From a virus, in IMG/VR virus record IMGVR_UViG_3300021225_000362, positions 13,966 through 77,965 of that record: DNA of 64,000 nt. One strand, 5' to 3'. Position numbers and translations under genes: made by a program. The notes under the pieces were generated by a model. That model was given only the letters and a program-made list of their open reading frames with translations. It was not told the DNA's origin and ran no database searches. Positions 37,925 to 58,642 of this stretch are shown piece after piece. Within the stretch, counting starts at the first letter, position 1. Each line of letters begins with the position of its first letter.

Positions 37925-37927
37925 ATT

Positions 37928-41948: not shown

Positions 41949-42396
41949 CATGACGGCAGTTGAATGGTATGCTAAAGAACACCACAAACTTTTGATTCAA
42001 CTGGAGAATAAGGAATTAAGTTTAGGAGCATATGTTGTAAAGCACTCTGATATTCTAAAACAAGCCAAACAAATGGAGGCAGAACAAAAGAAACTGCTTA
42101 CAGAAATAATGGAAGCAGACCAAAAAAGTGGGTTGTATGAAGACCATATTGGTGACACCAACAAAATGGTCACGGCAGTTGAATGGTTCATAGATGCAAT
42201 TACAGAAAGTGGTCATCTGTGGATGACAGATAAGCCAAACGATATGTTAGAGCTTGCTAAATTTATTGAACAAGCCAAACAAATGGAGAAGAGGCAAATA
42301 GTAAAAGCATATAATGCATATTACAGCGAAAAAACGTTTATAGATGGGGATTATCTGAAAGGAGAAGAGTATTATAATCAAACATATGGAAAATAA
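41935..42396 (+). CDS. TAVEW-family protein with two tandem domains
   Basis: MTAVEWY...QAKQME and MVTAVEWF...QAKQMEK...YYNQTYGK. Confidence 0.7.
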   Translation: MAQTNMTAVEWYAKEHHKLLIQLENKELSLGAYVVKHSDILKQAKQMEAEQKKLLTEIMEADQKSGLYEDHIGDTNKMVTAVEWFIDAITESGHLWMTDKPNDMLELAKFIEQAKQMEKRQIVKAYNAYYSEKTFIDGDYLKGEEYYNQTYGK

Positions 42397-42838
42397 GCAG
42401 ACGGCAGTAGAATGGTTTGCAAAAGAGATAAACAATATGAATGTTTCAAGAGAAGCAACATTGTTTATTAATAAATTAAAGGACCAAGCCAAAAAAATGG
42501 AGTATGAACAAAACAAAGTCACTGAAGATACTTCAGATGGTTACCATACATTCAAGGAACTCTATGATTTCCGCATGCTTTACAATGCTGCACTCTTTAA
42601 TGAATGGGCATTGCAAAACAAATATGAAGTTCATAAGAGTTGGTTACATCATGATGGTGAACTCTGTCTTGGTGGCGGTTGGTTCATTGTTGTGGCAATA
42701 TTACCAACAGGACAAATAAGTAATCACTATAGTGCAGAATATTGGGATTTGTTCAAGATTCCTGAAACAGTAAAAGCATTGTATCCTTTTGACGGACATA
42801 CTTCACAAGACGTTTTAAACAGATTGAAAAATTTATGA
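42386..42838 (+). CDS. TAVEW domain fused to an SDGYHTF/DGH phage domain
   Basis: QTAVEWF...QAKKME + TSDGYHTFKELYDFR...WFIVVAILPTGQISNHY...FDGHTSQDVLNRL. Confidence 0.7.
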   Translation: MENKQTAVEWFAKEINNMNVSREATLFINKLKDQAKKMEYEQNKVTEDTSDGYHTFKELYDFRMLYNAALFNEWALQNKYEVHKSWLHHDGELCLGGGWFIVVAILPTGQISNHYSAEYWDLFKIPETVKALYPFDGHTSQDVLNRLKNL

Positions 42839-43403: not shown

Positions 43404-44213
43404 ATGAAAGTAAACATGGAAAGTTTGCTCAAAGAGCAAAAACAGAAAGACCAAGCGATTCTGAACAGCGACCCTGTTAAGGATGTGAAACTTCTTTTAG
43501 AGGGAGATTCACAGGAAGACCTCAGAATCCTTCGTAATCTATCCAATTCATCGCAATTGTCTCAGGTTGAAACAATTAGGGGGAGACAGATTGAGTTGGA
43601 GAATTTGGAGAAAAATTATGTGGGTGATGTCTATACCATTGACCAAATTAAAAAATTGTGTATAGATTATCATTTGAGATTTCTCTCATCAAATTTATAC
43701 ACAGGTTCATTTGATGTAGAACTTACTTCAAAGTTGAAACAATTTTCAGCAGATGCGAAAGTTGAGTTGAATGAATGGAACTTAAAGAATAAGTTCTTCA
43801 TTATGGCTCCGCAAGAAATGTTTCAATTAAGAGATGAAAAATATCTCACAAAGAGACAATTGGACCCTGTTATCTTTTATAAAATTAATGACACCCATTA
43901 CAGAATGGTTCACAAGTGGGGCAATGATTTTACCATTTTCAGATTGATTGATGGTTTCAGGTGGAAATCATGGTGGAATTATCAATTATTCAATACATTC
44001 ATGTTAATGCCGATTTTTGGGTTAATCATTGGTTTGTTTTCCGATATTCATGATATAACACACCGTACAATCCTCATACCAACATTAATCACGATTTTTT
44101 CATTTATTTCAGCTTATTTCATTTTTGCTTTCGAAAAACATGATGAAGGTGAAGAAATTCATGGATTTTTCAGCAATAACAATTGGTGTTCAGAATCAAA
44201 ATTAAAAAGATAA
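43404..44213 (+). CDS. Conserved membrane-associated protein
   Basis: 269 aa; YHLRFL, DPVIFY, HKWGNDF, C-terminal TM pair; TACATTTA promoter upstream. Confidence 0.65.
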   Translation: MKVNMESLLKEQKQKDQAILNSDPVKDVKLLLEGDSQEDLRILRNLSNSSQLSQVETIRGRQIELENLEKNYVGDVYTIDQIKKLCIDYHLRFLSSNLYTGSFDVELTSKLKQFSADAKVELNEWNLKNKFFIMAPQEMFQLRDEKYLTKRQLDPVIFYKINDTHYRMVHKWGNDFTIFRLIDGFRWKSWWNYQLFNTFMLMPIFGLIIGLFSDIHDITHRTILIPTLITIFSFISAYFIFAFEKHDEGEEIHGFFSNNNWCSESKLKR

Positions 44214-44497
44214 TGAAAAAGGTAATCATTCTCGGATTTTTTGTTTCAATGGTTTTTTTGTCATATTCATCAATAAAATTCGTTGTGTATCTATTTTCGG
44301 ATGACATGGAAATTGAATATGTTGAAAAAGAAAATCATCTCACATATTTAGAAGAGGAAAAGAGAAATATCCAACATAAGAGTGACCATCATGTTCATGA
44401 ATTTATCGATTTAAGATATACCTATATCAAGAAAAATTTTGGTTGGGACATGAAGATTGATACATTGGGTACATCTACTTATTATGAAAAAAATTAG
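44213..44497 (+). CDS. Membrane-anchored hypothetical protein
   Basis: MKKVIILGFFVSMVF... within the track ORF 44183..44497. Confidence 0.55.
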   Translation: MKKVIILGFFVSMVFLSYSSIKFVVYLFSDDMEIEYVEKENHLTYLEEEKRNIQHKSDHHVHEFIDLRYTYIKKNFGWDMKIDTLGTSTYYEKN

Positions 44498-44502
44498 TAG
44501 TT

Positions 44503-44715
44503 ATGTCGAATGAATATCCATATGACATGATGGATAACGATGAAAGATTTAAGATATTTGCATCGAAAGAGCAAGTAAATAGATTTCATCTTTGTAGTGG
44601 TGAAGTTGTTAACGGTGTATTCGTATCTTCGGATACACTGTTAACAAATGCCACAATATCCGATTGTTACGCTATGATTCAACTCATTGAAAAAGGTTAC
44701 CTACTAAATTTGTAA
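44503..44715 (+). CDS. Hypothetical protein
   Basis: 70 aa ORF. Confidence 0.55.
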   Translation: MSNEYPYDMMDNDERFKIFASKEQVNRFHLCSGEVVNGVFVSSDTLLTNATISDCYAMIQLIEKGYLLNL

Positions 44716-44717
44716 AG

Positions 44718-44939
44718 ATGGTAGTATCAGAGTTAATTGAAATTTTGCAAAAACTTGACCCTGATTTAAGAGTTTTTGTTCAAGGTTATGAATCAGGTTT
44801 CGATGATATTAAAATATCTGATGAAACCAATTTTTCGTTGTATATTAACGAAGAATGGTACTATGGACCACATGAGAAGGATAAAAACGGACCGATTAAA
44901 GGTATTGTACTCGAAAGAGCAAGAAATAAAAATAATTAA
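44718..44939 (+). CDS. Conserved small phage protein
   Basis: MVVSELIEILQKLDPDLRVFVQGYESGFDD. Confidence 0.65.
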   Translation: MVVSELIEILQKLDPDLRVFVQGYESGFDDIKISDETNFSLYINEEWYYGPHEKDKNGPIKGIVLERARNKNN

Positions 44940-44950: not shown

Positions 44951-45124
44951 ATGAATAATCATTTTTCACCACATTTTAATTTATTCTTTGATGAATTGGG
45001 TTCAGAGGTGACAACAACATATGAAATCGTTAATACAGATAATATATTTGATAAAGTTGTTAATACTGTCATAAGAGAGGAGTTTGCACAATTGGGTACG
45101 GAAATAACACGAATTAATAGATGA
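44951..45124 (+). CDS. Array ORF 1 (not in track)
   Basis: MNNHFSPHFNLFFDELG...EFAQLGTEITRINR*. Confidence 0.55.
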   Translation: MNNHFSPHFNLFFDELGSEVTTTYEIVNTDNIFDKVVNTVIREEFAQLGTEITRINR

Positions 45125-45321
45125 AAAATAAAAAATATAAAATGGAATCATTTGTTAGATATTTTTACGGAATCAACCCAAGAGTAGAAAACGAAAAACA
45201 TATTAACGAAAAACAATTTATACGTGCATTTGATAATTTTAATAATGAATATAATACATTAAGTGATTTAAATATAGAAATAAAACGACTAACAGATGAC
45301 ATTAATAAGAGACGACATTGA
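45121..45321 (+). CDS. Array ORF 2
   Basis: ...LSDLNIEIKRLTDDINKRRH*. Confidence 0.55.
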   Translation: MKNKKYKMESFVRYFYGINPRVENEKHINEKQFIRAFDNFNNEYNTLSDLNIEIKRLTDDINKRRH

Positions 45322-45466
45322 AAAATTCTTTTTAGAGTTTTTTCAGAACAAACATCAATCATCAATGGACGAAATGTTTATTGATGATTTTGAATTTTTA
45401 TACAATGATTTATCAGATATGTCAACTGAAATTGACATCATATTAGACAATCGAATTTATGAATGA
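45296..45466 (+). CDS. Array ORF 3 (not in track)
   Basis: MTLIRDDIEKFF...DLSDMSTEIDIILDNRIYE*. Confidence 0.55.
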   Translation: MTLIRDDIEKFFLEFFQNKHQSSMDEMFIDDFEFLYNDLSDMSTEIDIILDNRIYE

Positions 45467-45647
45467 ACACATTGACATGGAAGGACTTATTGAGAATAAT
45501 ATGCCATTTATAGACAGCACATCAGAAAGAGAATTAACTTATAATATGGTGATGTTGTTTATGAAAAATGATAAAGAAAGAGTGATGAGGTGGAGATTAA
45601 ATGCGGAATTTCGTGATATAGAAACAGAAATAACCAATTTAATATGA
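45459..45647 (+). CDS. Array ORF 4
   Basis: MNEHID...EFRDIETEITNLI*. Confidence 0.6.
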   Translation: MNEHIDMEGLIENNMPFIDSTSERELTYNMVMLFMKNDKERVMRWRLNAEFRDIETEITNLI

Positions 45648-45853
45648 GTATGTTATTTAATTTTAAACTATCATTACATAATTTTGATATTGATGTAAAA
45701 TCAGATAGATTTTTACTTTATGATAGAACTTTGAATAATGCATACAATGATGTTTTTGATGAACTCGTTGAATTGGAGGATGAAATTGGTCAGTTTGGGA
45801 TAAAAATGAATCAAAAATCAGTTGGAAAAAAATTTTCGTTGGAAAATTCATGA
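45644..45853 (+). CDS. Array ORF 5
   Basis: ...DELVELEDEIGQF... Confidence 0.55.
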   Translation: MSMLFNFKLSLHNFDIDVKSDRFLLYDRTLNNAYNDVFDELVELEDEIGQFGIKMNQKSVGKKFSLENS

Positions 45854-46020
45854 AACACATAAAACTTGATGAAGAATTTTTTGAACCTCATAGTGAATTT
45901 ACTACTATGTTAGTGTCATTAAATGGGGTTACAAATACAAACATAAGGACAAATGAAGAAACAGAAGAATTTTTTACTGTAATTATGGAATTACATAGTT
46001 TAATAAATAGTTTATCGTAA
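45850..46020 (+). CDS. Array ORF 6 (not in track)
   Basis: MKHIKLDEEFF...IMELHSLINSLS*. Confidence 0.55.
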   Translation: MKHIKLDEEFFEPHSEFTTMLVSLNGVTNTNIRTNEETEEFFTVIMELHSLINSLS

Positions 46021-46022
46021 AC

Positions 46023-46211
46023 ATGGAATATCAAGAACAGAGAAATGACGCAGAATTTTGGCGTTCTCATTATGAATTAAAAGAATCAATCAATAACTAT
46101 TTATATGATTTTTTTATTAGTACAAATGAAAATTCATTTAATGACCAATTTCCTGAATTTAGGCGTTTAGAATTAGAAATATCATACTTTCTATCAAAAA
46201 AACATCCATGA
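46023..46211 (+). CDS. Array ORF 7
   Basis: ...EFRRLELEISYFL... Confidence 0.55.
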   Translation: MEYQEQRNDAEFWRSHYELKESINNYLYDFFISTNENSFNDQFPEFRRLELEISYFLSKKHP

Positions 46212-46423
46212 CCAAAATTACTGAAGAATTATCAGAATCAATGAATTCGGTAATCATCAGACCAATACATGATGAACTGATTTATTTTAAAATAAGTAAT
46301 AATATTATTCTTCGTGACTCAGATTGGAATGAATTATTTAATATAATGGAAGATTTAAAAATACAGACAGATGAATTATTTATGGATGAAAAAATAAAAT
46401 CAATTTTGAATGCGAATAGATAA
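46208..46423 (+). CDS. Array ORF 8
   Basis: ...MEDLKIQTDELF... Confidence 0.55.
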   Translation: MTKITEELSESMNSVIIRPIHDELIYFKISNNIILRDSDWNELFNIMEDLKIQTDELFMDEKIKSILNANR

Positions 46424-46595
46424 GACATTTATTGACATAAATCGTTTTGATAATTTTATCGTTGACCATCTACAAATTTTTATGAAAACCAATTCTGATA
46501 TTTTTAACAATGATGTTTTTCAATCATTTACAAATTTGTGCGTTGATTTTAGGGAACTTCGAAGTGAAAATGATAATTTAATACCCAATGTTTAA
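46410..46595 (+). CDS. Array ORF 9
   Basis: ...DFRELRSENDNLI... Confidence 0.55.
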   Translation: MRIDKTFIDINRFDNFIVDHLQIFMKTNSDIFNNDVFQSFTNLCVDFRELRSENDNLIPNV

Positions 46596-46776
46596 AAATA
46601 ATAGTGAAGACTTTCAAGTGTTTTATACCTCATTTATTAAAGAATTAGAATATAATATAGGTTGTGGTATGCGTAATGGATTGACAATAGAAATCGATAA
46701 CAATTTTCAAACCAATGAAATGTATGAAGGTTTATACAGTGAAATTAATGATTTAATTAATGAAGAAATGAAATAA
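46588..46776 (+). CDS. Array ORF 10
   Basis: ...YEGLYSEINDLINEEMK*. Confidence 0.6.
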   Translation: MFKNNSEDFQVFYTSFIKELEYNIGCGMRNGLTIEIDNNFQTNEMYEGLYSEINDLINEEMK

Positions 46777-46787
46777 AATCCATTTAT

Positions 46788-46967
46788 ATGAAAAATTCAA
46801 GGTCAATACATTCAACATTGATTAATTTCGATAACAAACTATATTATGGAATACAAAATTATATTCATTTAGAAATAGATTGGGAATTACACAAGAAAAT
46901 TAATGAAATTTTAAATATTGATTTGGAACCATTGCAAGATTTGTTGGATGATTTAATAGATTATTAA
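46788..46967 (+). CDS. Array ORF 11 (not in track)
   Basis: MKNSRSIH...DLEPLQDLLDDLIDY*. Confidence 0.55.
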   Translation: MKNSRSIHSTLINFDNKLYYGIQNYIHLEIDWELHKKINEILNIDLEPLQDLLDDLIDY

Positions 46968-46992
46968 TCAGATATAAAAATTTGAAAAAACT

Positions 46993-47190
46993 ATGTACAA
47001 TTCTATCTTACGTGACATTACACAGAAGTTGTTTGAAACAATGACAAACCCAAAACATAAAGAAATTGAATCTATTGCGTACACAATTAAAAGATATGTT
47101 GAATTAAAACGAGATTTATATGTTTCTCCTGATTCAGAAATGGATGAATTAACCGATGCAATTGATGAACTATACAAAATCAAAAAATGA
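46993..47190 (+). CDS. Array ORF 12
   Basis: ...EMDELTDAIDELY... Confidence 0.55.
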   Translation: MYNSILRDITQKLFETMTNPKHKEIESIAYTIKRYVELKRDLYVSPDSEMDELTDAIDELYKIKK

Positions 47191-47366
47191 ATAACAGATT
47201 TTCAATACATCACTCAATAAATACATTTGACACCGATTTTTTTAGAAAAGGGAATTTCGTCCCAATTTACGAAGACGATGTTATGAATAAAGTAAAAGAA
47301 GAAATGTCGATGTTAGATTTTCATCCATTGGATGATGAAATAGACAAATTTATTGACCATGAATAA
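47187..47366 (+). CDS. Array ORF 13 (not in track)
   Basis: MNNRF...DFHPLDDEIDKFIDHE*. Confidence 0.6.
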   Translation: MNNRFSIHHSINTFDTDFFRKGNFVPIYEDDVMNKVKEEMSMLDFHPLDDEIDKFIDHE

Positions 47367-47517
47367 TAAAATTTACTTACCGTTGACGGAAAAAATGTTC
47401 TATTTTGGTACGAATCACACAATCTTGAATCAAACTAATGATTCTTGGTGGACATTACGTATGGAAATTGAATCAGATTTAAAAAGAGAAATAACAAACC
47501 TCATTTATTATGAATAA
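47359..47517 (+). CDS. Array ORF 14 (not in track)
   Basis: MNNKIY...DLKREITNLIYYE*. Confidence 0.6.
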   Translation: MNNKIYLPLTEKMFYFGTNHTILNQTNDSWWTLRMEIESDLKREITNLIYYE

Positions 47518-47692
47518 AAAAATTAACATAAAAGAATTCAATTTTAATGAAATAATTTATTCAGAAGAAGAAATTAAAGAAATTCATTTTTTAGTTCAAG
47601 AAATTTATTTACCATATTACCAACCAATTTTTTTTGAAGCAAATTTTTTGAAACGTGAAATCAATTTTTTGGCATATAGACAAGAAAATTAA
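47510..47692 (+). CDS. Array ORF 15
   Basis: MNKKINI...FLKREINFLAYRQEN*. Confidence 0.6.
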   Translation: MNKKINIKEFNFNEIIYSEEEIKEIHFLVQEIYLPYYQPIFFEANFLKREINFLAYRQEN

Positions 47693-47837
47693 ACTCGAAG
47701 TCGTGTTGTATTTACCTGATGAACCTATAGATACAGAAGTAACACAGATTTTATCGGAAGATTTTTATGAAGCGGATAATTTGTTCTTTCAATTAGAACG
47801 ACAAATCGAAAACATCATTCATGAACAAAAAAATTGA
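47655..47837 (+). CDS. Array ORF 16; the canonical junction start appears mutated (ATAGACAAG in place of ATGAACAAG)
   Basis: ...IDKKIKL...FFQLERQIENIIHEQKN*. Confidence 0.5.
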   Translation: MKSIFWHIDKKIKLEVVLYLPDEPIDTEVTQILSEDFYEADNLFFQLERQIENIIHEQKN

Positions 47838-48021
47838 CCTGAATCCGCCACTAATAGGTGAAGTTATTGGGTTTATGAATGGAATACACGATATACACTT
47901 CATATTAGATTTTGATTTACATTCCGCATTGTATTTTAATTTATTTTCTTATTCTTTAGAAATACATAGACTGAGAGATAACATAAATGAAATTATCGAT
48001 GAACAAGGAAATTATAAATAA
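47821..48021 (+). CDS. Array ORF 17
   Basis: MNKKIDL...EIHRLRDNINEIIDEQ... Confidence 0.6.
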   Translation: MNKKIDLNPPLIGEVIGFMNGIHDIHFILDFDLHSALYFNLFSYSLEIHRLRDNINEIIDEQGNYK

Positions 48022-48169
48022 AGTTGCGATGAAATTACATCATTCTTTAAATTCTGAATTAACAATCAATACGGATTTAATTTTGTTATATGGTGAATTT
48101 TATTCCAAATCTTCGATTGAAATAAATGAATTGAAATCTGAAATAAATGATTTTATCGATGAACAATAA
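47999..48169 (+). CDS. Array ORF 18
   Basis: MNKEII...EINELKSEINDFIDEQ*. Confidence 0.6.
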   Translation: MNKEIINKVAMKLHHSLNSELTINTDLILLYGEFYSKSSIEINELKSEINDFIDEQ

Positions 48170-48323
48170 AATTGAATTGGATAATGAGAAGTATGATGAT
48201 TTATGCGATGTCACGTCTGAATCAATTAAGGAAGATGTATATCTTAAATTATGTCTCGATTTTAACTTCGAACTGATGGAAATTAAAAATTTCACAACCT
48301 TTTACATAAACCATGAACAATAA
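48159..48323 (+). CDS. Array ORF 19 (not in track)
   Basis: MNNKIEL...ELMEIKNFTTFYINHEQ*. Confidence 0.6.
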   Translation: MNNKIELDNEKYDDLCDVTSESIKEDVYLKLCLDFNFELMEIKNFTTFYINHEQ

Positions 48324-48483
48324 AATTAAAATTAAACTCAAACAGATAAACGATATATTCTATCTAAATAAAGATGTGGAAGAATTAATACAATTGATAA
48401 CTGTATATGGGTTTGAAAATAATTTAAATTTTGAAATCCATGAAATTACCGACCAAATAAATGTTCTTTGTGGTGAACAATAA
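48313..48483 (+). CDS. Array ORF 20 (not in track)
   Basis: MNNKIKI...EIHEITDQINVLCGEQ*. Confidence 0.6.
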   Translation: MNNKIKIKLKQINDIFYLNKDVEELIQLITVYGFENNLNFEIHEITDQINVLCGEQ

Positions 48484-48658
48484 TAAAATATCACTTTTTG
48501 AACCTGTACATAAAAATTTTAATTTGGATATCAATCCCATATATAATGATTCTTTTGATGTTACGTTATATCTTGGATTACATGACGAACTTAAATTTAC
48601 AATTGAGACAGAATTCAATCAATTAAATGTTGAAATAGATGAAATACAAAAAATGTGA
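48473..48658 (+). CDS. Array ORF 21 (GTG start at the junction)
   Basis: VNNNKISL...EFNQLNVEIDEIQKM*. Confidence 0.55.
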   Translation: MNNNKISLFEPVHKNFNLDINPIYNDSFDVTLYLGLHDELKFTIETEFNQLNVEIDEIQKM

Positions 48659-48806
48659 AATAGATGAAAAAATTCTGTTTGAATTGTTTTCTTATGATAC
48701 CCATGAATATATACAATGGTTATGTATTCCTAAGTTATTTTTCCAATTAAGAGTACCAATTGAATTGGAATTTATGAATTTAAAATCTCAAATAGATGGA
48801 TTATAA
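48639..48806 (+). CDS. Array ORF 22 (not in track)
   Basis: MKYKKCEI...FFQLRVPIELEFMNLKSQIDGL*; close to ORF 23. Confidence 0.6.
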   Translation: MKYKKCEIDEKILFELFSYDTHEYIQWLCIPKLFFQLRVPIELEFMNLKSQIDGL

Positions 48807-48984
48807 TAAATGCAGATTCAATAAAAATAAGTTGAAAGAATTTGTATCTTTCGATATCAATACTTGGATACATTGGGTGCTTCCTTATCAAATATTTAAC
48901 CAATTAAGAGAACCAACGGAAATGGAATATATGGAATTGGAATCTGAAATAAACGTCTTTTGTAAAAAACAAATCAATGAATAA
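48796..48984 (+). CDS. Array ORF 23
   Basis: MDYNKC...FNQLREPTEMEYMELESEINVFCKKQINE*. Confidence 0.6.
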   Translation: MDYNKCRFNKNKLKEFVSFDINTWIHWVLPYQIFNQLREPTEMEYMELESEINVFCKKQINE

Positions 48985-49138
48985 GAGAATTGATTTAACG
49001 GATATACGACTGAATCATTTTGCACTTGAAATTGTTATCACATTTGAAGTGTGGTGTGAATTGAATGAATTACTATACGAGATGATTTTTAATGAATTAA
49101 AAGAAATTGAAGAACAAATCGATGAACAACAAAATTGA
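48977..49138 (+). CDS. Array ORF 24 (not in track)
   Basis: MNKRIDL...ELKEIEEQIDEQQN*. Confidence 0.6.
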   Translation: MNKRIDLTDIRLNHFALEIVITFEVWCELNELLYEMIFNELKEIEEQIDEQQN

Positions 49139-49307
49139 ACCACATTTTTTCATGAACACATATAGTTTATCTCCAATAGAAGACTATAATACCGAAAGAT
49201 TATTTGATGAACTTTACGAATCACAAAATCAAGGGATACACAGAGAATTCCATGAACTATATTTCGAAATAAAAAATATCTCCAATGAACAAATCATTTA
49301 TCAATAG
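49122..49307 (+). CDS. Array ORF 25
   Basis: MNNKIEP...EFHELYFEIKNISNEQ... Confidence 0.6.
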   Translation: MNNKIEPHFFMNTYSLSPIEDYNTERLFDELYESQNQGIHREFHELYFEIKNISNEQIIYQ

Positions 49308-49461
49308 TTCATCCACCATTATATTTGAGTCACTTCACACAGAACTAAATGAAAATTTAAATTTAGATTTATATATTAACTTACATCTTAAATTGAAAAG
49401 TCAATTAGAATTAAATACCAGACAACTAAATTTTGAAATAAAAGAAATCTGCAATGAATAA
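49285..49461 (+). CDS. Array ORF 26 (not in track)
   Basis: MNKSF...RQLNFEIKEICNE*. Confidence 0.6.
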   Translation: MNKSFINSSSTIIFESLHTELNENLNLDLYINLHLKLKSQLELNTRQLNFEIKEICNE

Positions 49462-49630
49462 TAATACACGTTTACAATTCTTGGAAAAATTACCATTCTT
49501 TACACCAACCATAGACAACCCTTTTGACCTACTATTATTCCAAGAACTACATGTATCAATGAATCAAACAACAAATAAAGAAATGAATGAATTATGTTTC
49601 GCCATAAAACAAGTTATCAATGAACAATAA
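49454..49630 (+). CDS. Array ORF 27, NPFD subgroup (not in track)
   Basis: MNNNTRL...DNPFDLLL...EMNELCFAIKQVINEQ*. Confidence 0.65.
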   Translation: MNNNTRLQFLEKLPFFTPTIDNPFDLLLFQELHVSMNQTTNKEMNELCFAIKQVINEQ

Positions 49631-49796
49631 TATACGTTCAGAATTCTCGGAAAAAGTATTAACCATGACACCACATTACAAAAACCCTTTTGACGATTTA
49701 TTACACAAAGAACTATATGTATCCCTAATTCAAACAACAACTACAGAAATGATAGAATTACAATATACAATAAAAGAAATCTGCAATGAACAGTAA
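49620..49796 (+). CDS. Array ORF 28, NPFD subgroup (not in track)
   Basis: MNNNIRS...KNPFDDLL...EMIELQYTIKEICNEQ*. Confidence 0.65.
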   Translation: MNNNIRSEFSEKVLTMTPHYKNPFDDLLHKELYVSLIQTTTTEMIELQYTIKEICNEQ

Positions 49797-49962
49797 ATTA
49801 ATGGAAGACTTGAAAGAAAATATACCAGACTTTACATCAAACATCGAAAACCCTTTTGACAATTTATTATTTGATAATCTATATTTCACATTAAGACAAA
49901 GAGTTATCTGGGAAATGAATCAATTAGAAACCACCATAACAAGAATCACCAATGAACAATAA
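49786..49962 (+). CDS. Array ORF 29, NPFD subgroup (not in track)
   Basis: MNSKL...ENPFDNLL...EMNQLETTITRITNEQ*. Confidence 0.65.
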   Translation: MNSKLMEDLKENIPDFTSNIENPFDNLLFDNLYFTLRQRVIWEMNQLETTITRITNEQ

Positions 49963-50125
49963 GTTAAATTTAACCAAATTACATGATAACTTATATACCA
50001 ATTTATTTCACAAAGATATATTCCCAGAAGACCTCGTATTCTATATAGAAGTAATCCCAAATAATCAACTAACAGAATTAGTTGATTTAGAATTACGAAT
50101 AAATGAAATCTACAATGAACGATAA
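49952..50125 (+). CDS. Array ORF 30 (not in track)
   Basis: MNNKLNL...ELVDLELRINEIYNER*. Confidence 0.6.
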   Translation: MNNKLNLTKLHDNLYTNLFHKDIFPEDLVFYIEVIPNNQLTELVDLELRINEIYNER

Positions 50126-50294
50126 AATAGTTATCAGTTCAATTTTAATACGTGAACCAACATCCTTTATCTACACTAAGATAAATACTGATTTATACAC
50201 GCAGTTAAAAATGGAACTACTACGTACAATTAATATGGAAATAATTGAATTAGAATCCCAAATAAAAGATATCTGCAATGAATCAAATCGATGA
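50115..50294 (+). CDS. Array ORF 31
   Basis: MNDKIV...EIIELESQIKDICNESNR*. Confidence 0.6.
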   Translation: MNDKIVISSILIREPTSFIYTKINTDLYTQLKMELLRTINMEIIELESQIKDICNESNR

Positions 50295-50427
50295 TAAACC
50301 AAATACAGAACATATCATCAAAGAAATATAATCTGTATTAAATTACATAGATAACGATACACAAAAAATACTCGTTAATATGATTTTGAATGAAATTGTT
50401 GACATAAAATTGGATATAGATGCATAA
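50278..50427 (+). pseudogene. Array ORF 32 with an in-frame TAA at 50329
   Basis: MNQIDDKPNTEHIIKEI*SVLN...NEIVDIKLDIDA*; paralog ORF 34 has EI-K(AAA)-SV at this position. Confidence 0.65.
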
Positions 50428-50590
50428 TGACATCACAAAATTCAACATAGATTTTGATACACAAGAAATCACTTTTCATATACAATGGGATTTACTTTTC
50501 CTATTATTCACCCACATACGAGATTCACCTGAAACAGAACTCGGTGAACTGCAAATACAAATAGGAAATATATCAGAAATTAAAAAATAA
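50420..50590 (+). CDS. Array ORF 33 (not in track)
   Basis: MHNDIT...ELGELQIQIGNISEIKK*. Confidence 0.55.
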   Translation: MHNDITKFNIDFDTQEITFHIQWDLLFLLFTHIRDSPETELGELQIQIGNISEIKK

Positions 50591-50601
50591 TTATACAAAA
50601 C

Positions 50602-50760
50602 ATGAACAAATCTGATACCTCAGATATCGTACAAGAAATAAAATCTGTATCAAGTCATATCAATACCCCTCTCTTAAATGAACTCCATGATTTACTTATG
50701 AACCAAACTTATAATGAAATAATCGATATAAAATTTGAAATAGATATTATCTTATCCTAA
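50602..50760 (+). CDS. Array ORF 34 (not in track)
   Basis: MNKSD...QEIKSV...NEIIDIKFEIDIILS*. Confidence 0.6.
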   Translation: MNKSDTSDIVQEIKSVSSHINTPLLNELHDLLMNQTYNEIIDIKFEIDIILS

Positions 50761-50771
50761 AATGAAATTAA

Positions 50772-50951
50772 ATGAACATAGATGAAACCGATAAGTTTAT
50801 AAGAGATAAATTACGTCTAATCGAATTGGCCGAATTCTACAATGAACCATATTTTACATATGTAGATAATCAAATTGGTATCGAAATTGATGAACTATAT
50901 CATGAACTATATGACTCCTTTGGAATGCCCCTGAATTATAGTTCTAAATGA
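50772..50951 (+). CDS. Array ORF 35 (not in track)
   Basis: MNIDE...EIDELYHELYDSF... Confidence 0.55.
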   Translation: MNIDETDKFIRDKLRLIELAEFYNEPYFTYVDNQIGIEIDELYHELYDSFGMPLNYSSK

Positions 50952-51243
50952 TTAACATTGTCGTAAATGAATACAAAATCCTGTATTACAGAAAATAAAT
51001 AAAAAATCCCTCTGGGATATACAAAAACAGGAATAAATATAGTGTGAGAAAAACCAGGAACCAGTATTGGGGATTGTCCCCTGTGTGAGACTGTAATACC
51101 CCCTAATTTTTTTAAAATTTCAGACTAAAAAAAGTCCCGTTTTTGATATCAGAAACGACAATTTTTTAGGGGTATCGATGCAATATACCAGAACGGGGTT
51201 TTTATGTACCTGTAATACGTGTATACCTGAAACAGGTTTATAT

Positions 51244-51362
51244 GTCATACGTTAGGGGGTAATGTATATTGTCATACGTGATATAGATTTACGTTTCCGT
51301 CATACATAATGGTGTCTGTCATACGTATAGGGACCTGTCATACACCCGAAGGGTTGTCATAC
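51244..51362. repeat. Six copies of GTCATAC in the intergenic convergence zone
   Basis: Starts at 51244, 51271, 51299, 51318, 51337, 51356 (spacing 27, 28, 19, 19, 19). Confidence 0.9.
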
Positions 51363-51418
51363 GTACATAAAAAAACCGTCCCAGAAATGGAACGGTTTTA
51401 TTTTTGTGTAACAAACTA

Positions 51419-53409: not shown

Positions 53410-54189
53410 CCGTATTACGAATTTATTTGATGAGTCCAACTTGTTTCGGACTTTTTTGAACTTGAGTCCGACAATCACGTTCGGTTCATCGATGTATCTC
53501 ATGTCATACTTGTCCCCGTCAATAACCTTGTACCCTTCAAACGTTTCGGGTAATTTGTCAAAAACAACGGATATCCGAACGTTCTTTTTTAACATTTCCT
53601 TACACACGTCCCAATTATGTCCACTGAACGAAAATGTAAGGTCATAGTTAGGATATTTCTCCAAAACCTTAGTACGGGTCGGAACTTTGGTATAATCGTA
53701 AAATTGGACATCTGGAAACATCTGGAGGATATTCACGTTTTTCCCGTTCTCATTCACATAAAACATCTCAGGGGAAATATCGGATGTATTATTCAGACGA
53801 ACCGAAAAACGATACCCCAATTTTTGTGAACGTTTAATTCCCGATTTAATCTCATCGATAATCCAACGGACGGTAAATTCCCGTTCATTAAAAAACAATT
53901 GTGTTTTACTGATACGGGACTTGTTAATTTTGTTCTTATGAATATCCATCCTGTTCTGTCCACTTTCATTCAGACATACGGACGTACATTCAGGGGTACG
54001 GGACGGACATACTTCAAACCCGCTCATTTTGGCTGGGGCGAAGTAAATTGTGTACACCAGTTCGTTGTACTTATAAGCTTTCTCATGTTTGGTTGAATTG
54101 TTCACCATACCAAAATAAGAAAACCCCGTTAACTGTCTGGCTTGTTTCTTGTTCTTGTAAATTAACATATAAATTGATTTAGGATACAA
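53395..54189 (-). CDS. Phage GP88-like protein with a CxxxxxxCxxxC Cys cluster
   Basis: VCPSRTPECTSVCLNESG, VRLNNTSDI, QFYDYTK, LTFSFS, IDGDKYDMR, VGLKFK. Confidence 0.7.
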   Translation of the reverse strand: MYPKSIYMLIYKNKKQARQLTGFSYFGMVNNSTKHEKAYKYNELVYTIYFAPAKMSGFEVCPSRTPECTSVCLNESGQNRMDIHKNKINKSRISKTQLFFNEREFTVRWIIDEIKSGIKRSQKLGYRFSVRLNNTSDISPEMFYVNENGKNVNILQMFPDVQFYDYTKVPTRTKVLEKYPNYDLTFSFSGHNWDVCKEMLKKNVRISVVFDKLPETFEGYKVIDGDKYDMRYIDEPNVIVGLKFKKVRNKLDSSNKFVIRTHQI

Positions 54190-54239
54190 AGATAAAACGA
54201 ATATTTGAAACCACCAAATTTAAATTGAATTTATTTTTA

Positions 54240-54390
54240 AAATATTCCTTGGCAACCTGACTGTTAATAAAACTTTAATTCTTCTGAATATTCTTTGGCA
54301 CGTCCTGTGTTAAATGATACCCAATATTTCTGAATATTCTTTGGCACGTGGGTTGGGAATAAAAAAAGGGGGAATATAGAAATATCCCCC
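54240..54390. repeat. Three-unit TTGGCA/TGTTAA repeat (46-bp period) plus terminator hairpin
   Basis: Cores at 54240, 54286, 54332; hairpin GGGGGA...TCCCCC at 54368-54390. Confidence 0.9.
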
Positions 54391-54416
54391 CATCTTCATA
54401 TTAACCCTAAATAGTT

Positions 54417-55175
54417 TCAGAGACGCAGGGACATCTTCTCATCATTCTTTCTACGATAGTTGTAGATATCCTCAATCATGAGTGAGTAAGATTTCTTATC
54501 CCCACAAAGTTGAAGTAAATCAGGACGTACCTTAACCTTATGAAGGAACTCATCAAATTTAAATCCTTTTTTCTTTTCCATAATGGAAAGGAGAGTACGG
54601 ACAAAGTTTGAACGGTTGTATCCTTTTTCAAAATATGGTTTGAGTTGAAGAAGATTGTTTGCCCACTTTTCTGCAGTCTGAAGATTCTTGACACTGAATT
54701 TACCGTCAGCAAACTCTTTTTTGTTTGCGTGTTTTGTACCACTATTCTGAAGTAACATCAATCGTTCGGTCAATGAGAACATGGGGAACTTCTCACCAAA
54801 CTCATCCAATATACGGTAAGATTCGTTACCTTGGTTTGCGTACCCTGTTATATAATCTTTCTTACTCCACTCCTTGGCGTTCTTGTTAAGTTCCTTGGCA
54901 GCTTCGAAAATCCCTTTGGCGGTGTTTGTAATACTTTCATCGATGATATAGAAAATACCACATCCAGCAATCTCAGCTGCTTTCACCCGATGTTGTCCGT
55001 CAACAATAACCATTTTGGTGGTCACAATGATGGGGTGTTTTTTCAGCTCCTTTTTCATGGATTCGGATATCCTGAATATCCTGTTTTGTGATTGTGGGTT
55101 ATTGATATCCCTGTTCACTTGATGGAACTTAAAAATACTCAAATCTTTGGTGTAGAGAACCTTGAATTCTTTCAT
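54417..55175 (-). CDS. ParB/Srx-like N-terminal domain protein
   Basis: FHQVNRDIN, PIIVTTKMVIVDGQHRVKAAE. Confidence 0.75.
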   Translation of the reverse strand: MKEFKVLYTKDLSIFKFHQVNRDINNPQSQNRIFRISESMKKELKKHPIIVTTKMVIVDGQHRVKAAEIAGCGIFYIIDESITNTAKGIFEAAKELNKNAKEWSKKDYITGYANQGNESYRILDEFGEKFPMFSLTERLMLLQNSGTKHANKKEFADGKFSVKNLQTAEKWANNLLQLKPYFEKGYNRSNFVRTLLSIMEKKKGFKFDEFLHKVKVRPDLLQLCGDKKSYSLMIEDIYNYRRKNDEKMSLRL

Positions 55176-55232
55176 ATAAACTTAGTTTTACCAAAAATAA
55201 TAACAAGTTATTTAACCACCAAATTATTTTTT

Positions 55233-55260
55233 AAAAAAAATCCCCCGTGTATGACGGGGG
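55233..55260 (-). terminator. Terminator hairpin CCCCCGT-CATAC-ACGGGGG (minus strand) + T-run
   Basis: Same hairpin recurs at 55762-55789; contains GTCATAC on the minus strand. Confidence 0.75.
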
Positions 55261-55267
55261 TGTTAAA

Positions 55268-55663
55268 TTAGTACCAAAGAGTCGTGTTATCCTCAATCAA
55301 TTTAGATAATTTACGGATATCCTCAACACTCATTTTATCCTTACAGAACTCCGAAATATCCTTGGTTAAGTTTTCCTTTATGTTATCAAAAACAATCTGA
55401 GAATTAATGTGGTTAAACAACCTCGGACGATACTTCTTGATTTCCTTAAATGTCGGATGACGAACTTCTGAAGGTGAACACATCCCCCACATATCTGTCC
55501 TTACATCACCGTCAGAAAAGGTTTGAATAACCACACCAATTTCTATGGGACATTTTTCATCGTCATATTCTTTCAAAAGAACATCCCCCAACTGAAACGT
55601 TTCACATGGTTCATTCTCATATTCAAACATTTTAAAACGATTGTGGTCACGTACTACGAACAT
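55268..55663 (-). CDS. Hypothetical protein
   Basis: 131 aa ORF with its own promoter cassette. Confidence 0.6.
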   Translation of the reverse strand: MFVVRDHNRFKMFEYENEPCETFQLGDVLLKEYDDEKCPIEIGVVIQTFSDGDVRTDMWGMCSPSEVRHPTFKEIKKYRPRLFNHINSQIVFDNIKENLTKDISEFCKDKMSVEDIRKLSKLIEDNTTLWY

Positions 55664-55761
55664 TTTATTTTAATTTAGATTACAAAGATAAAACGAATAT
55701 TTGATATTACCAAATTTATTTTTAATTCCTACCTGCCAAAGAACATTTAAAACAGATAAAT

Positions 55762-55789
55762 AAAAACCCCCCGTGTATGACGGGGGGTT
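55762..55789 (-). terminator. Terminator hairpin, second copy
   Basis: AACCCCCCGTGTATGACGGGGGGTT. Confidence 0.75.
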
Positions 55790-55796
55790 GTGGGAG

Positions 55797-56657
55797 TTAG
55801 ACCAAGGATACCAAGGAATCAAAGATTTCCCGTTCCCTTTTACCATAGACCCCGAAGAGTTTCTTTTCGGTGTTGTTCTCACCCTTACCGACCGTATGGG
55901 TTGTGAACTTTGTGACACCTGAGAAGAGTCCCCAAAGGTTGTCTCCCTTTTGTTTCAGTTCTCCGTTCAGGTCAAGATAGAACCGACTGATATCGTTCCT
56001 TTTCCTTGTGGAGATTTCCTCACTTGTAAGGTCAAGTTTGTCGGTAACATCGAACAGAGCTCTTGTCACCAATTCTTTTACCTTGTCATCCATCTTCACC
56101 TCACTCATCCTTTTGATACGTTGGAAGAGTTTCTTTTCGTCCTCAACAAGGACATCAAGACGATGACAGATTTCGTCAACCTTGATACCCATGTTCTCTG
56201 TGTGACGAACCTTTGAGGACACCTCACGGTAAGCCCCAAAGAATGTGTTCTGACAAGAGATGGTGATGGTTGAGTTACCGAAACCAAGGGACGTTGACCC
56301 GTCAAAAGAATTGATACCTGTGATGTACCCTTCCACCTTGTCCTTACCCAACTTCAGGTCATTGGTCTTGAGTTGAATATAGACTTTCTGTCCGTCACCG
56401 AAATACCCACCATTGTGGATGTCAAGACCCGTCTTGTGGGATACCCTTTCAAGGAGAGTGAGGAGTTCCTCATTCTGATAGGGTTGATACTTCGCCCCCA
56501 TAACGGAAAGGGGAATGTTGGAATCGGTACGGATGATAGCCGCAAATTCGGGAATCTCAATACCTGTGGACGTTTGGATAGGTTGTTTCTCAACTTTCCA
56601 ATTCAGACCTACTTTCTCAAGGATGGAGGTCACTTCGGGGGATGTCTGTTCTTTCAT
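55797..56657 (-). CDS. DUF932-family protein
   Basis: GLNWKVEKQP, RTDSNIPLSVMGAKYQPYQNEE, GGYFGDGQKVYI, NSFDGS, CQNT, VRHT, NLWGLFSGVT; ATG at 56657. Confidence 0.85.
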   Translation of the reverse strand: MKEQTSPEVTSILEKVGLNWKVEKQPIQTSTGIEIPEFAAIIRTDSNIPLSVMGAKYQPYQNEELLTLLERVSHKTGLDIHNGGYFGDGQKVYIQLKTNDLKLGKDKVEGYITGINSFDGSTSLGFGNSTITISCQNTFFGAYREVSSKVRHTENMGIKVDEICHRLDVLVEDEKKLFQRIKRMSEVKMDDKVKELVTRALFDVTDKLDLTSEEISTRKRNDISRFYLDLNGELKQKGDNLWGLFSGVTKFTTHTVGKGENNTEKKLFGVYGKREREIFDSLVSLV

Positions 56658-56739
56658 ATTTGAATCATTTAGAACACAAAGATAAAACAATTTTTTATAT
56701 CACCAAATTTTTATTCAACTTTTTTTCAGACAATTTTAA

Positions 56740-56837
56740 ATATATTCTTTGGCAGGGTTCTATCCTATGGGGATTCAAATATTCTTTGGCACGTGGGTGG
56801 GGTAAAAAAAAAGGGGGTAGTGTAGAAACACTCCCCC
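56740..56837. repeat. Two TTGGCA motif copies plus terminator hairpin
   Basis: ATATATTCTTTGGCA at 56740, AAATATTCTTTGGCA at 56777; GGGGG...CCCCC hairpin at 56813-56837. Confidence 0.85.
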
Positions 56838-57057
56838 GCACCTTTACTCTAAAACAAATTACCCTATCATTATTTCAGACAATAGTTTTCCGTCCTTTGA
56901 AAATTCTTTCCTTACAATGAATGTAAATGAAAAATCGGACTTCTCAACACGTTTAAACCTGTCTTCCGCTTCTTTCAAATCTTTTGTGTCCGTGTATTCC
57001 CCATTGAGGAATACCCCATATTGTACTTTGGTCATATTGGAATTTTTTGCAAAGATA

Positions 57058-57270
57058 TTATTTATTTGTTTTTATGAAACGAATGAATATGGAATTTTTG
57101 ATATGGTCGTAATTATATTCACGTTCAAAGTCTTTTAATGACCAAACGTTTCCTTGTTCTTGACTTATCTCAATAAATTCATCATCTGTTAAACTTCCAC
57201 CAACAAGTTTGGTTAATTCAGTCGAATCAGTCAGTTTATAACTATCAATACCATAGACACTATATTCCAT
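57058..57270 (-). CDS. Small phage protein
   Basis: DDEFIEISQEQGNVWSLKDFEREYN. Confidence 0.65.
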   Translation of the reverse strand: MEYSVYGIDSYKLTDSTELTKLVGGSLTDDEFIEISQEQGNVWSLKDFEREYNYDHIKNSIFIRFIKTNK

Positions 57271-57306
57271 AATTGTTTGTTTTTGAATTTAAAAAAAGGT
57301 GAGGGA

Positions 57307-57720
57307 TTATTCCCCCACCGTTTCGTCCTTTGTTTCCCACATAAATACGGAATTCGATTCCAAAGTGAACCCACACTCAATTTCACACACTTCGTTATCC
57401 TCTATGTATAATTTGACGTACACACCACCCCTTGATAAGAATGTTTCCCTTTCTTCAATTTTTCCGTCATTGGTTAGTTTAATACCATCAATGATTTTGA
57501 AAGCATCCTCAAACAAACCGATTGCCGTGTCTTTCAGGTCATTCACGGAAGGGGTTTTATCATTGGTTGTTACCCATGTCCAATTCAAATCCTTCATGAC
57601 CTTGCGTATTTTGTGCCAATCTACGAACAAGACACATTCGTATATCGCTTCCATACGGGTCTTCATGCGATGTTCTTGTTCAAACACATTTTTCTGTGCT
57701 TTAACTTTCTTCTTTGCCAT
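57307..57720 (-). CDS. Conserved phage hypothetical protein
   Basis: VDWHKIRKVMKDLNWTW...P...LK; promoter cassette upstream. Confidence 0.7.
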   Translation of the reverse strand: MAKKKVKAQKNVFEQEHRMKTRMEAIYECVLFVDWHKIRKVMKDLNWTWVTTNDKTPSVNDLKDTAIGLFEDAFKIIDGIKLTNDGKIEERETFLSRGGVYVKLYIEDNEVCEIECGFTLESNSVFMWETKDETVGE

Positions 57721-57774
57721 GATTTGTTTGTTTTAGAATGTAAAGGTAATATCTTTATATGAATCTGCCAAATT

Positions 57775-58056: not shown

Positions 58057-58108
58057 TGTTATTTGTTTTAGATTGTAAAGGTAATATGTTTATGTGATAT
58101 GACCAAAT

Positions 58109-58641: not shown

Positions 58642-58642
58642 T

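What the first reader, a model, noticed from the sequence alone, without database searches (positions are those of the whole stretch)
44951..50951. Six-kilobase array of about 35 coupled, hypervariable acidic mini-genes
Seen: about 35 consecutive plus-strand ORFs of 50-71 codons with almost no intergenic DNA, roughly half invisible to the 60-aa ORF track. From 47.2 kb on, most boundaries are variants of one 11-mer, ATGAACAATAA, which reads (N/D/H)-E-Q-stop for one gene and M-N-N-K for the next in a shifted frame. Most products share an amphipathic acidic C-terminal helix (E-L-x-x-E-I-x-x-I-x-N-E-Q) but have very different N-terminal/central parts. Only one in-frame stop was found in 6 kb of very AT-rich DNA, which argues for selection on coding. 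Inference: an accordion-like gene library generated by unequal recombination at the junction, encoding variable-specificity binders or decoys (for example anti-defence proteins, DNA mimics, or competitors of a host coiled-coil). I recognise no described family or system matching this; that needs a database check.
Basis: partly seen in the sequence, partly recalled or inferred. Interest (0 to 1): 0.88.

Follow-up and report, generated by a model that had tools for sequence, protein, structure and literature searches.

The report
Tandem mini-gene array in jumbo phage
An uncultured freshwater giant phage carries a 6-kb row of 35 back-to-back genes for related ~58-residue acidic helical proteins; selection keeps them open, related strains carry 22 to 35 copies, their function is unknown, and similar rows of small genes were already noted in two other giant phages.

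Summary
Window 44951-50951 carries 34 intact plus-strand genes of 52-71 codons and one unit broken by a single TAA. Of the 34 junctions, 29 overlap by 4-38 nt. Open frames cover 97% of the strand, against 14.5% in a Markov null.

Leave-one-out profiles place 30 of 34 products in one family. It has a variable N-terminal part and a 33-35-residue amphipathic C-terminal helix. Conserved positions use different synonymous codons, so the constraint is on the protein.

Eighteen related metagenome contigs (freshwater, wastewater, groundwater) carry the same array. Units are missing, fused or chimeric, complete arrays hold 22, 32 or 35 units, and the array sits at two positions relative to a neighbouring gene block.

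Between strains no stop codon arose where about 13 are expected. dN/dS is 0.6-0.8 against 0.21 in flanking genes, and 0.44 at hydrophobic core positions.

The family matches no Pfam, PHROG, PDB or isolated-phage sequence. A search of 1.84 billion proteins found only this lineage.

The contig is about 24% of a jumbo phage. Tandem arrays of more than 30 similar genes were reported in jumbo phages G and 121Q, and this scan noted two such arrays in jumbo coliphages on other DNA. This is therefore a new family and a new variant of a known pattern. Function (small binders for host takeover or counter-defence) is inferred, not shown.

The parts
44951..47190 (+). Units 1-12 of the array: 12 genes of 56-71 codons. 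Junctions are mostly ATGA-type 4-nt overlaps, with three short gaps (2, 11, 25 nt).
   Evidence: ORF chain. Leave-one-out profile recognises units 1, 2, 4, 5, 7, 8, 11 and 12; units 3, 6, 9 and 10 are not shown to be homologous. Orthologues are present in L001, L002, L005 and L015.
47187..50294 (+). Units 13-31: 19 genes of 52-66 codons. Each junction overlaps by 8-38 nt, and each gene is shifted +1 in frame relative to the previous one. The typical junction is ATGAAyAAnnAA, which reads (N/D/H)-E-Q-stop for one gene and M-N-(N/K)-K for the next.
   Evidence: Strongest mutual homology is here. The 166-bp-period triplet of units 27-29 lies at 49454-49962.
50278..50427 (+). Unit 32, a pseudogene in this genome. 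It has one premature TAA at 50329-50331; the orthologue in L001 (7398-7559) has AAA there and is an intact 53-aa gene.
50420..50951 (+). Units 33-35 (56, 52 and 59 codons), separated by 11-nt gaps. This is the end of the array.
47999..48169 (+). Unit 18, present in the window and L003 but absent from most relatives. It is flanked by 62-nt direct repeats (47952-48013 and 48112-48173, 74% identical), which marks an unequal crossover site.
46023..46211 (+). Unit 7, absent from L001, L005 and L006 but present in L002 (where unit 7 is the best match, at 73% identity) and L015: single-unit presence/absence variation.
47655..47837 (+). Unit 16, the most conserved unit: 98-100% identical protein in all ten first-fetched loci. 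Neighbouring units 13 and 17 have alleles of only 45-52% identity.
   Evidence: AF2 model: C-terminal helix 27-59 with high confidence, N-terminal part uncertain.
50952..51418 (.). Convergent intergenic region that ends the plus-strand transcription unit. It holds terminator-like hairpins and a cluster of TGTCATAC repeats.

Best explanation
SHOWN. The region is a tandem family of 35 translationally coupled genes (34 intact, one with a nonsense mutation). They lie in a 79-kb fragment of an uncultured freshwater jumbo phage that lacks Shine-Dalgarno sequences and has Bacteroidota-type promoters. Each gene encodes an acidic, non-membrane protein of about 58 residues: a short variable N-terminal element followed by one long amphipathic helix with a heptad-like hydrophobic stripe. 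The family grew by local tandem duplication. It is still reshaped by unequal homologous recombination between units, both at the conserved stop/start junction and at conserved internal motifs. This gives strains with 22 to 35 units, fusion genes and chimeras. Selection keeps every frame open and keeps the hydrophobic core, but lets the remaining residues drift quickly.

INFERRED (translation). The overlapping stop/start junctions, in a genome without ribosome-binding sites, let ribosomes terminate and restart a few bases upstream. One long mRNA would then yield all products.

INFERRED (function, about one chance in three). A single long amphipathic helix cannot be stable alone, so each product probably works by packing its conserved hydrophobic face against a partner, either another copy or a common target, while the variable surface and N-terminus set specificity. 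The array would then be a repertoire of small cytoplasmic binders used during infection for host takeover or counter-defence, and strains would differ in which binders they carry.
For: Coding, not chance:
- ORF coverage is 97% against a 14.5% null.
- Twenty-seven genes carry 234 substitutions against L001 with no stop created. Simulation with the same spectrum expects 13.5 stops, with a minimum of 5 in 2000 runs.
- Conserved residues use mixed synonymous codons, for example L as TTA 15, TTG 7, CTA 2, CTG 2, CTT 1.

One family:
-; 30 of 34 units reach p <= 0.01 against 1020 shuffles.

Fold:
- AF2 model of unit 27: pLDDT 81, helices 3-12 and 23-57.
- AF2 model of unit 16: helix 27-59.
- Hydrophobic positions are spaced 3-4-3.
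- Core dN/dS is 0.44 against 0.71 for surface positions.

Protein properties:
- 33 of 34 products are acidic and none has a long hydrophobic stretch.

Duplication and recombination:
- Nearest paralogues are neighbours.
- Unit gain and loss, fusions and array sizes of 22, 32 and 35.
- P0004 equals unit 27 residues 1-25 joined to unit 28 residues 26-58, found on two contigs from different sources.
- Contigs break and show unit-sized skips in three metagenomes.

Fast evolution:
- dN/dS is 0.6-0.8 against 0.21 for seven flanking genes compared with the same relative.
- Deeply diverged alleles of units 2, 13 and 25 show dN/dS of 0.16-0.37, which indicates long-term purifying selection.

Phage context:
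- CheckV completeness is 24% for 79 kb. A relative of the neighbouring gene lies on a 292-kb contig.
- No SD-like 4-mer precedes any of 34 array genes or 38 other genes. TTTG...TAnnTTTG promoters are present.
- An AAA_33 kinase plus T4-type RNA ligase pair lies 6 kb upstream. In T4 such a pair repairs tRNA cut by a host defence (established knowledge).

Precedent:
- Arrays of more than 30 similar genes occur in jumbo phages G and 121Q (PMC5646251).
Against: There is no expression or proteomic evidence. No RNA run holds the region; the single 'RNA?' run is probably DNA and covers 163 nt.

There is no evidence for any binding partner. The homodimer prediction gave no verdict, and structure searches return only generic long helices.

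Aggregate dN/dS below 1 and even use of the three codon positions (83/72/79) fit relaxed constraint as well as diversifying selection.

One unit is a pseudogene and strains lose units freely, so individual units are dispensable.

Four units are not demonstrably homologous to the rest.

No promoter was identified for the array, so its timing in infection is unknown.
Confidence: 0.6

Rival explanations
1. Virion cargo with a shared targeting helix. The conserved C-terminal helix would be a common docking signal that loads all 35 variable proteins into the capsid or onto an ejection apparatus. They would enter the host with the DNA, in the manner of the T4 internal proteins, which share a capsid-targeting sequence and are hypervariable between T-even phages (established knowledge).
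For: One conserved terminal module sits on an otherwise variable small acidic protein. Jumbo phages package many proteins (general knowledge). Strain-to-strain replacement of units resembles the polymorphic T-even IP locus.
Against: The array lies among non-structural genes (kinase, RNA ligase, PurA-like enzyme) and far from the tail-fibre and virion genes at the contig start. No protease-site motif or conserved N-terminal leader beyond M-N-N-K-I is present. No virion proteomics exists.
Confidence: 0.12
2. Largely functionless by-product of runaway tandem duplication. The units would persist because they are cheap in a head-full-packaging jumbo genome, and their products would do little.
For: dN/dS is 0.6-0.8 and substitutions are spread evenly over codon positions. 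There is a pseudogene. Units are lost, fused or replaced between strains. Hua et al. interpret such arrays as a route to genome expansion.
Against: No stop arose where 13.5 are expected. All 34 old, highly diverged paralogues (at most 55% identity) are still open. Hydrophobic core positions are more constrained (0.44 against 0.71). Deep allele pairs show dN/dS of 0.16-0.37. Unit 16 is 98-100% identical across ten loci.
Confidence: 0.15
3. One long polyprotein made by repeated programmed +1 frameshifting or stop-codon recoding across the junctions, rather than 35 separate proteins.
For: From unit 13 to unit 33 every junction shifts the frame by exactly +1, and the junction sequence is conserved.
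Against: Every unit has its own ATG (one GTG) placed 4-38 nt before the previous stop, which is the standard geometry for termination-reinitiation. All three stop codons are used (22 TAA, 12 TGA, 1 TAG). The left part of the array uses -4 overlaps and gaps of 2-25 nt. No slippery heptamer is shared. Unit gain and loss always removes whole start-to-stop units.
Confidence: 0.02
4. The repeat is a DNA- or RNA-level element (iterons, packaging or recombination signals, structured RNA) and the open frames are incidental. Alternatively, the variation is written by a diversity-generating retroelement.
For: A conserved 11-mer recurs at regular intervals. A 166-bp exact period occurs in units 27-29.
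Against: Conservation is at the amino-acid level with synonymous codon variety. ORF coverage is far above the null on one strand only. DNA repeats are only 60-80% alike. No reverse transcriptase is present in the 79-kb contig, though the rest of the genome is unseen.
Confidence: 0.03

Closest known systems
[quoted passage not shown] 2017, mBio, PMC5646251; read)
   Same: Jumbo-phage setting. More than 30 head-to-tail copies of one small gene. Interpreted as tandem duplication. Function unknown. This scan's earlier notes e1-147436 and e1-249165 describe such arrays in jumbo coliphages.
   Different: No sequence relationship: the profile search of 1.84 billion proteins and tblastn against 50,697 phage records found only this lineage. 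The copies here are highly diverged rather than 'very similar'. The products are about 58 residues with one long helix. The junctions are overlapping stop/start sites in an SD-less genome. The host signals are Bacteroidota-type and the habitat is freshwater.
Genomic accordions: amplification of a host-antagonist gene in poxviruses (Elde et al. 2012, cited in PMC13359090), and segmental amplification of tifA or anti-defence loci in T4/T6 (PMC9391042, PMC13096335; titles and abstracts seen)
   Same: Copy number of a tandem gene block changes by homologous recombination between repeats, and close relatives differ in copy number.
   Different: Accordions are recent, near-identical and reversible amplifications of a known antagonist under acute selection. 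Here the copies are old (at most 55% protein identity), each is maintained as a distinct gene, and no antagonist function is known.
T4 internal proteins (IPI, IPII, IPIII) and the polymorphic IP locus of T-even phages (established knowledge, not tested with a paper here)
   Same: Small proteins with a short conserved targeting module and an otherwise hypervariable sequence. They are clustered, swapped between related phages and used against host defences.
   Different: The T4 module is an N-terminal capsid-targeting sequence removed by the prohead protease. Here the conserved module is a C-terminal helix, there are ten times more copies, and virion association is unknown.
Host-takeover clusters of small early genes, for example SPO1 genes 37-60 and T7 class I genes such as gp2 and gp0.4 (established knowledge)
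   Same: Dense runs of small, often acidic, non-enzymatic proteins that bind host proteins.
   Different: Those clusters consist of unrelated genes, each usually with its own promoter or ribosome-binding site. Here the genes are paralogues chained by overlapping junctions.

Membership tests
Jumbo-phage tandem arrays of >30 small similar genes (phage G / 121Q type) | Located in a jumbo phage genome (>200 kb) | tested here: inconclusive
   The contig is 79,457 bp, linear, with CheckV completeness 24%, which implies roughly 300 kb. A 52%-identical relative of the neighbouring gene lies on a 292-kb contig. The complete genome was not seen.
Jumbo-phage tandem arrays of >30 small similar genes (phage G / 121Q type) | At least 30 head-to-tail copies of one small gene | tested here: met
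   35 units; 30 of 34 intact ones are statistically recognisable as one family.
Jumbo-phage tandem arrays of >30 small similar genes (phage G / 121Q type) | Sequence homology to the array proteins of phage G or 121Q | tested here: not met
   The profile search of 1.84 billion representatives gave 13 hits, all orthologues from this lineage. tblastn of a member against all isolated phages at E <= 1 gave no match. The likeness is one of kind, not common descent.
Genomic accordion (recent adaptive amplification) | Copies near-identical, indicating recent amplification | tested here: not met
   The youngest paralogues (units 27/28) are 55% identical with dS 0.43. DNA repeat families are 60-80% identical.
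Genomic accordion (recent adaptive amplification) | Copy number differs among close relatives through recombination between repeats | tested here: met
   Complete arrays of 35, 32 and 22 units. Single-unit deletions are flanked by repeats. A 27/28 chimera was found.
Genomic accordion (recent adaptive amplification) | Amplified gene is a demonstrated antagonist of host defence | not testable with these tools
   No functional data exist. No hit to any annotated family.
T4-type internal proteins | Conserved N-terminal capsid-targeting sequence ending in a prohead-protease site | tested here: not met
   The N-terminal conservation is only M-N-(N/K)-K-(I/F). The conserved module is C-terminal.
T4-type internal proteins | Presence in the virion | not testable with these tools
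   The phage is uncultured and has no proteomics.
Diversity-generating retroelement target | Reverse transcriptase and template repeat nearby | tested here: not met
   No RVT_1 match in the 79-kb contig. About three quarters of the genome is unseen.
Any curated protein family (Pfam-A, PHROGs) or solved or predicted fold | Significant profile or fold match | tested here: not met
   All 34 members were scanned. No PHROG matched at E <= 0.01, and one sub-threshold Pfam hit was found. Foldseek found nothing in PDB; BFVD and the ESM Atlas returned only generic helices.

The most novel reading that the evidence does not exclude
The array is a combinatorial adaptor library. All units use the same conserved C-terminal amphipathic helix to dock onto one hub, either each other as mixed coiled coils or a single phage or host protein. 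Their fast-evolving surfaces and N-termini each capture a different member of a large host protein family, for example the many defence proteins or ECF sigma/anti-sigma pairs typical of Bacteroidota. Unequal recombination and chimera formation would then be the phage's way of generating new specificities. Large tandem mini-gene arrays would be a convergent hallmark of jumbo phages (G, 121Q and this lineage).
Probability: 0.15. Interest if true: 0.85.

Novelty: new variant of a known kind. Interest (0 to 1): 0.58.

Why it matters
Most genes of large phages are small and of unknown function, and gene finders miss many of them; half of these units fall under a 60-codon cut-off.

This array is one of the largest paralogous gene families yet seen in a phage. 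It arose independently of the arrays in phages G and 121Q, which suggests that massive tandem expansion of small helical proteins is a recurrent route by which jumbo phages grow and adapt.

More than ten natural variants of the array are already in public metagenomes, with unit gain, loss, fusion and chimeras. It therefore offers a ready natural experiment on how phages build and edit a repertoire of small proteins.

It is also a clean example of long chains of termination-reinitiation coupling in a Shine-Dalgarno-free genome.

If the products prove to be host- or defence-binding modules, the family would supply about 35 or more new small binders with a common scaffold.

Tried and rejected
- blastn of the array against 50,697 phage records found no match. 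tblastn of a member found no match.
- Pfam and PHROG scans of ten members, then of all 34, found nothing.
- The ESM Atlas search by features gave no usable hit.
- Foldseek against PDB found nothing. BFVD and Atlas shape searches returned only generic long helices, for example the IS66 leucine zipper and FecR or zf-HC2 anti-sigma helices. I treat these as non-specific.
- The search for related loci could not use alignment A1 because no stretch was conserved enough. Viral-contig scans with the neighbouring 269-aa gene and with unit 16 found no relative.
- Homodimer prediction for unit 28 gave no verdict: score 0.00, own fold uncertain without an alignment. It is evidence neither for nor against self-association.
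- Expression: no run on record as RNA holds the region. The one 'RNA?' run is probably DNA and covers 163 nt.
- Promoter search: no Bacteroidota-consensus promoter lies inside or just upstream of the array, and the sigma-70 scan gave fewer hits than shuffles.
- Search for a progenitor gene in more distant relatives (L016, 70%, and L017, 52% identity in the marker gene): no ORF within 10 kb scores better than E = 0.02.
- Positive selection: aggregate dN/dS never exceeded 1 in any class of site. A few single-gene values above 1 rest on fewer than 5 synonymous changes.
- Polyprotein/frameshift, DNA-element and retroelement readings were considered and rejected (see rivals).
- Literature searches for described arrays of this type in phages found only the Hua et al. 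sentence and the accordion papers.

Full report
WHAT IS THERE

Window 44951-50951 holds an unbroken chain of 34 plus-strand ORFs of 52-71 codons. A 35th unit lies at 50278-50427. It is interrupted by one TAA at 50329-50331, where a related contig has AAA and an intact 53-codon gene.

Stop-to-stop frames of at least 50 codons cover 97.4% of the plus strand. In 500 first-order Markov simulations of this 26%-GC DNA the mean was 14.5% and the maximum 43.5%.

Using the conserved M-N-(N/K)-K starts, 29 of 34 junctions overlap. Seven overlap by 8 nt, seven by 11 nt and five by the ATGA 4 nt. Five junctions have gaps of 2-25 nt. From unit 13 to unit 33 each gene is shifted +1 relative to the one before.

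The exact 11-mer ATGAACAATAA occurs four times in the 64-kb window, always at an array junction, and seven more junctions match with one mismatch. No gene in the array, and none of 38 other genes tested, has a Shine-Dalgarno-like 4-mer upstream; the upstream region is A-rich.

ONE PROTEIN FAMILY

- Pairwise phmmer links 19 units.
- An iterated profile recruits 20 units and hits no other ORF of the 79-kb contig and no shuffled or reversed decoy.
- In a leave-one-out test, 25 of 34 units outscore all 1020 composition-matched shuffles and 30 of 34 reach p <= 0.01. Units 3, 6, 9 and 10 are not demonstrably related.
- The alignment shows the motif E-phi-x-x-L-x-x-E-I-x-x-phi near the C-terminus. 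One column is 100% hydrophobic, another is isoleucine in 30 of 34, and further hydrophobic positions run back through the protein at 3-4 spacing.
- At the conserved positions the codons differ synonymously, so the constraint is on the protein and not on the DNA.
- AlphaFold models give a long C-terminal helix: residues 23-57 in unit 27 (pLDDT 81) and 27-59 in unit 16. The N-terminal element is short and variable.
- Thirty-three of 34 products are net acidic, median pI is 4.63, and none looks membrane-bound.

WHERE IT COMES FROM

The window is part of a single 79,457-bp linear viral record that CheckV rates 24% complete. The record starts inside a tail-fibre gene and carries glycosyltransferases, methyltransferases, a PurA-like enzyme, an AAA_33 kinase and a T4-type RNA ligase. 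It is a fragment of a jumbo phage.

Bacteroidota-type promoters (TTTG...TAnnTTTG) precede minus-strand genes downstream. The array DNA occurs in freshwater, wastewater, groundwater and wetland metagenomes from at least 12 studies.

RELATIVES AND DYNAMICS

Eighteen contigs carrying the same array were fetched (L001-L010, L013-L015, L018-L020). They are 82-97% identical to the window in alignable parts. They differ in several ways:

- Whole units are missing in some contigs, namely units 7, 15, 18, 23, 27 and 30-32.
- Some genes are fused, for example units 4 and 5 in L015.
- One chimera has residues 1-25 from unit 27 and residues 26-58 from unit 28. It is present in two independent samples.
- Complete arrays have 35 units (window), 32 (L001) and 22 (L015).
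- The array follows a block headed by a 269-codon membrane-protein gene in the window and L001, but precedes that block in L013, L015 and L020.
- Metagenome contigs break and show unit-sized skips inside the array.

Within the window, a unit's best paralogue lies within two units for 15 of 29 units, where 3.4 are expected. This is the signature of local tandem duplication.

The copies are nevertheless old. The youngest pair is 55% identical with dS 0.43, and DNA repeats are 60-80% alike. More distant phages, at 70% and 52% identity in the neighbouring gene, have no family member within 10 kb.

SELECTION

Against L001, 27 alignable genes carry 234 substitutions spread evenly over codon positions (83/72/79), yet none creates a stop. 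Placing the same substitution spectrum at random yields 13.5 stops on average and never fewer than 5 in 2000 trials.

Orthologue dN/dS is 0.6-0.8, against 0.21 for seven flanking genes compared with the same relative. It is 0.44 at the 13 hydrophobic core columns and 0.71 elsewhere. Deeply diverged allele pairs of units 2, 13 and 25 give 0.16-0.37. Unit 16 is 98-100% identical in ten loci, while its neighbours have alleles of 45-52% identity.

The picture is firm selection for an open, helical, amphipathic product together with weak constraint on exposed residues. Diversifying selection is possible but not demonstrated.

DATABASE CHECK

- All 34 members gave no PHROG and no credible Pfam match.
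- A profile search of 1.84 billion representative proteins found 13 hits, all orthologues from this lineage. A second search of 5.8 billion proteins found 11.
- There was no match in 50,697 isolated phage genomes.
- There was no specific structural match.
- No reverse transcriptase is present in the contig.

INTERPRETATION

Shown: a real, lineage-restricted, tandemly duplicated family of coupled mini-genes whose copy number and composition vary among natural strains through unequal recombination.

Inferred from the junction geometry and the absence of ribosome-binding sites: translation passes from gene to gene by termination-reinitiation.

Inferred from the fold: a lone 35-residue amphipathic helix must pack against something, so the products are probably small binders. 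The most likely use is host takeover or counter-defence during infection. This is a guess at about one in three, and no partner is known.

Rivals are virion cargo with a shared docking helix, and a nearly neutral by-product of runaway duplication. Much less likely are a frameshifted polyprotein or a DNA-level element.

COMPARISON AND NOVELTY

Hua et al. [quoted passage not shown] Earlier notes of this scan (e1-147436, e1-249165) describe comparable arrays in jumbo coliphages.

The present array shares the kind but not the ancestry. It is an unrelated protein family with much older copies and a distinctive overlapping junction, in a different phage lineage and habitat.

It also differs from poxvirus- or T4-type accordions, whose copies are recent and near-identical.

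I therefore rate it a new variant of a known kind. It is moderately interesting in itself. It is more so as evidence that giant tandem mini-gene families are a convergent feature of jumbo phages.

Noticed in passing
window 51243-51362: Five exact copies of TGTCATAC (plus CGTCATAC at about 51298) are clustered in 120 bp of the convergent intergenic region just after the array. There are 9 copies in the whole window against 2.4 expected. They could be binding sites for a regulator or an origin-like element.
   Followed up: partly
window 43404-44939 versus L013, L015, L020: A four-gene block lies upstream of the array in the window and L001 but downstream of it in L013, L015 and L020. The block is a 269-aa protein with C-terminal hydrophobic helices, a 104-aa protein with an N-terminal hydrophobic helix, and genes of 70 and 73 aa. 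This is a rearrangement between otherwise 83-90% identical phages.
   Followed up: partly
window 37526-38968: An AAA_33 kinase (132 aa) sits directly before a T4 Rnl1-type RNA ligase (346 aa). The pairing resembles the T4 PNK + Rnl1 tRNA-repair counter-defence. It is conserved in L015.
   Followed up: no
whole contig G000:C1 (79,457 bp); L011 3-1367: The record is only about 24% complete by CheckV and begins inside a tail-fibre-like gene. The phage is probably about 300 kb. A 52%-identical homologue of the 269-aa gene sits on a 292-kb metagenome contig.
   Followed up: partly
window 54187-61656, minus strand: Seven near-identical TTTGGT...TTTTATCTTTG promoter-like modules (Bacteroidota -33/-7 type) precede minus-strand genes. 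No gene tested in the window has a Shine-Dalgarno-like sequence.
   Followed up: partly
window 47655-47837 versus 47187-47366 and 47821-48021: Within the array, unit 16 is 98-100% identical across ten metagenome loci. Units 13 and 17 beside it occur as alleles of only 45-52% identity. This sharp mosaic suggests cassette-like replacement of single units.
   Followed up: partly
window 42386-42838: A 150-aa protein has a strong WDGH-domain match (E = 6e-36). A second WDGH protein lies in L015 at 13675-14112.
   Followed up: no
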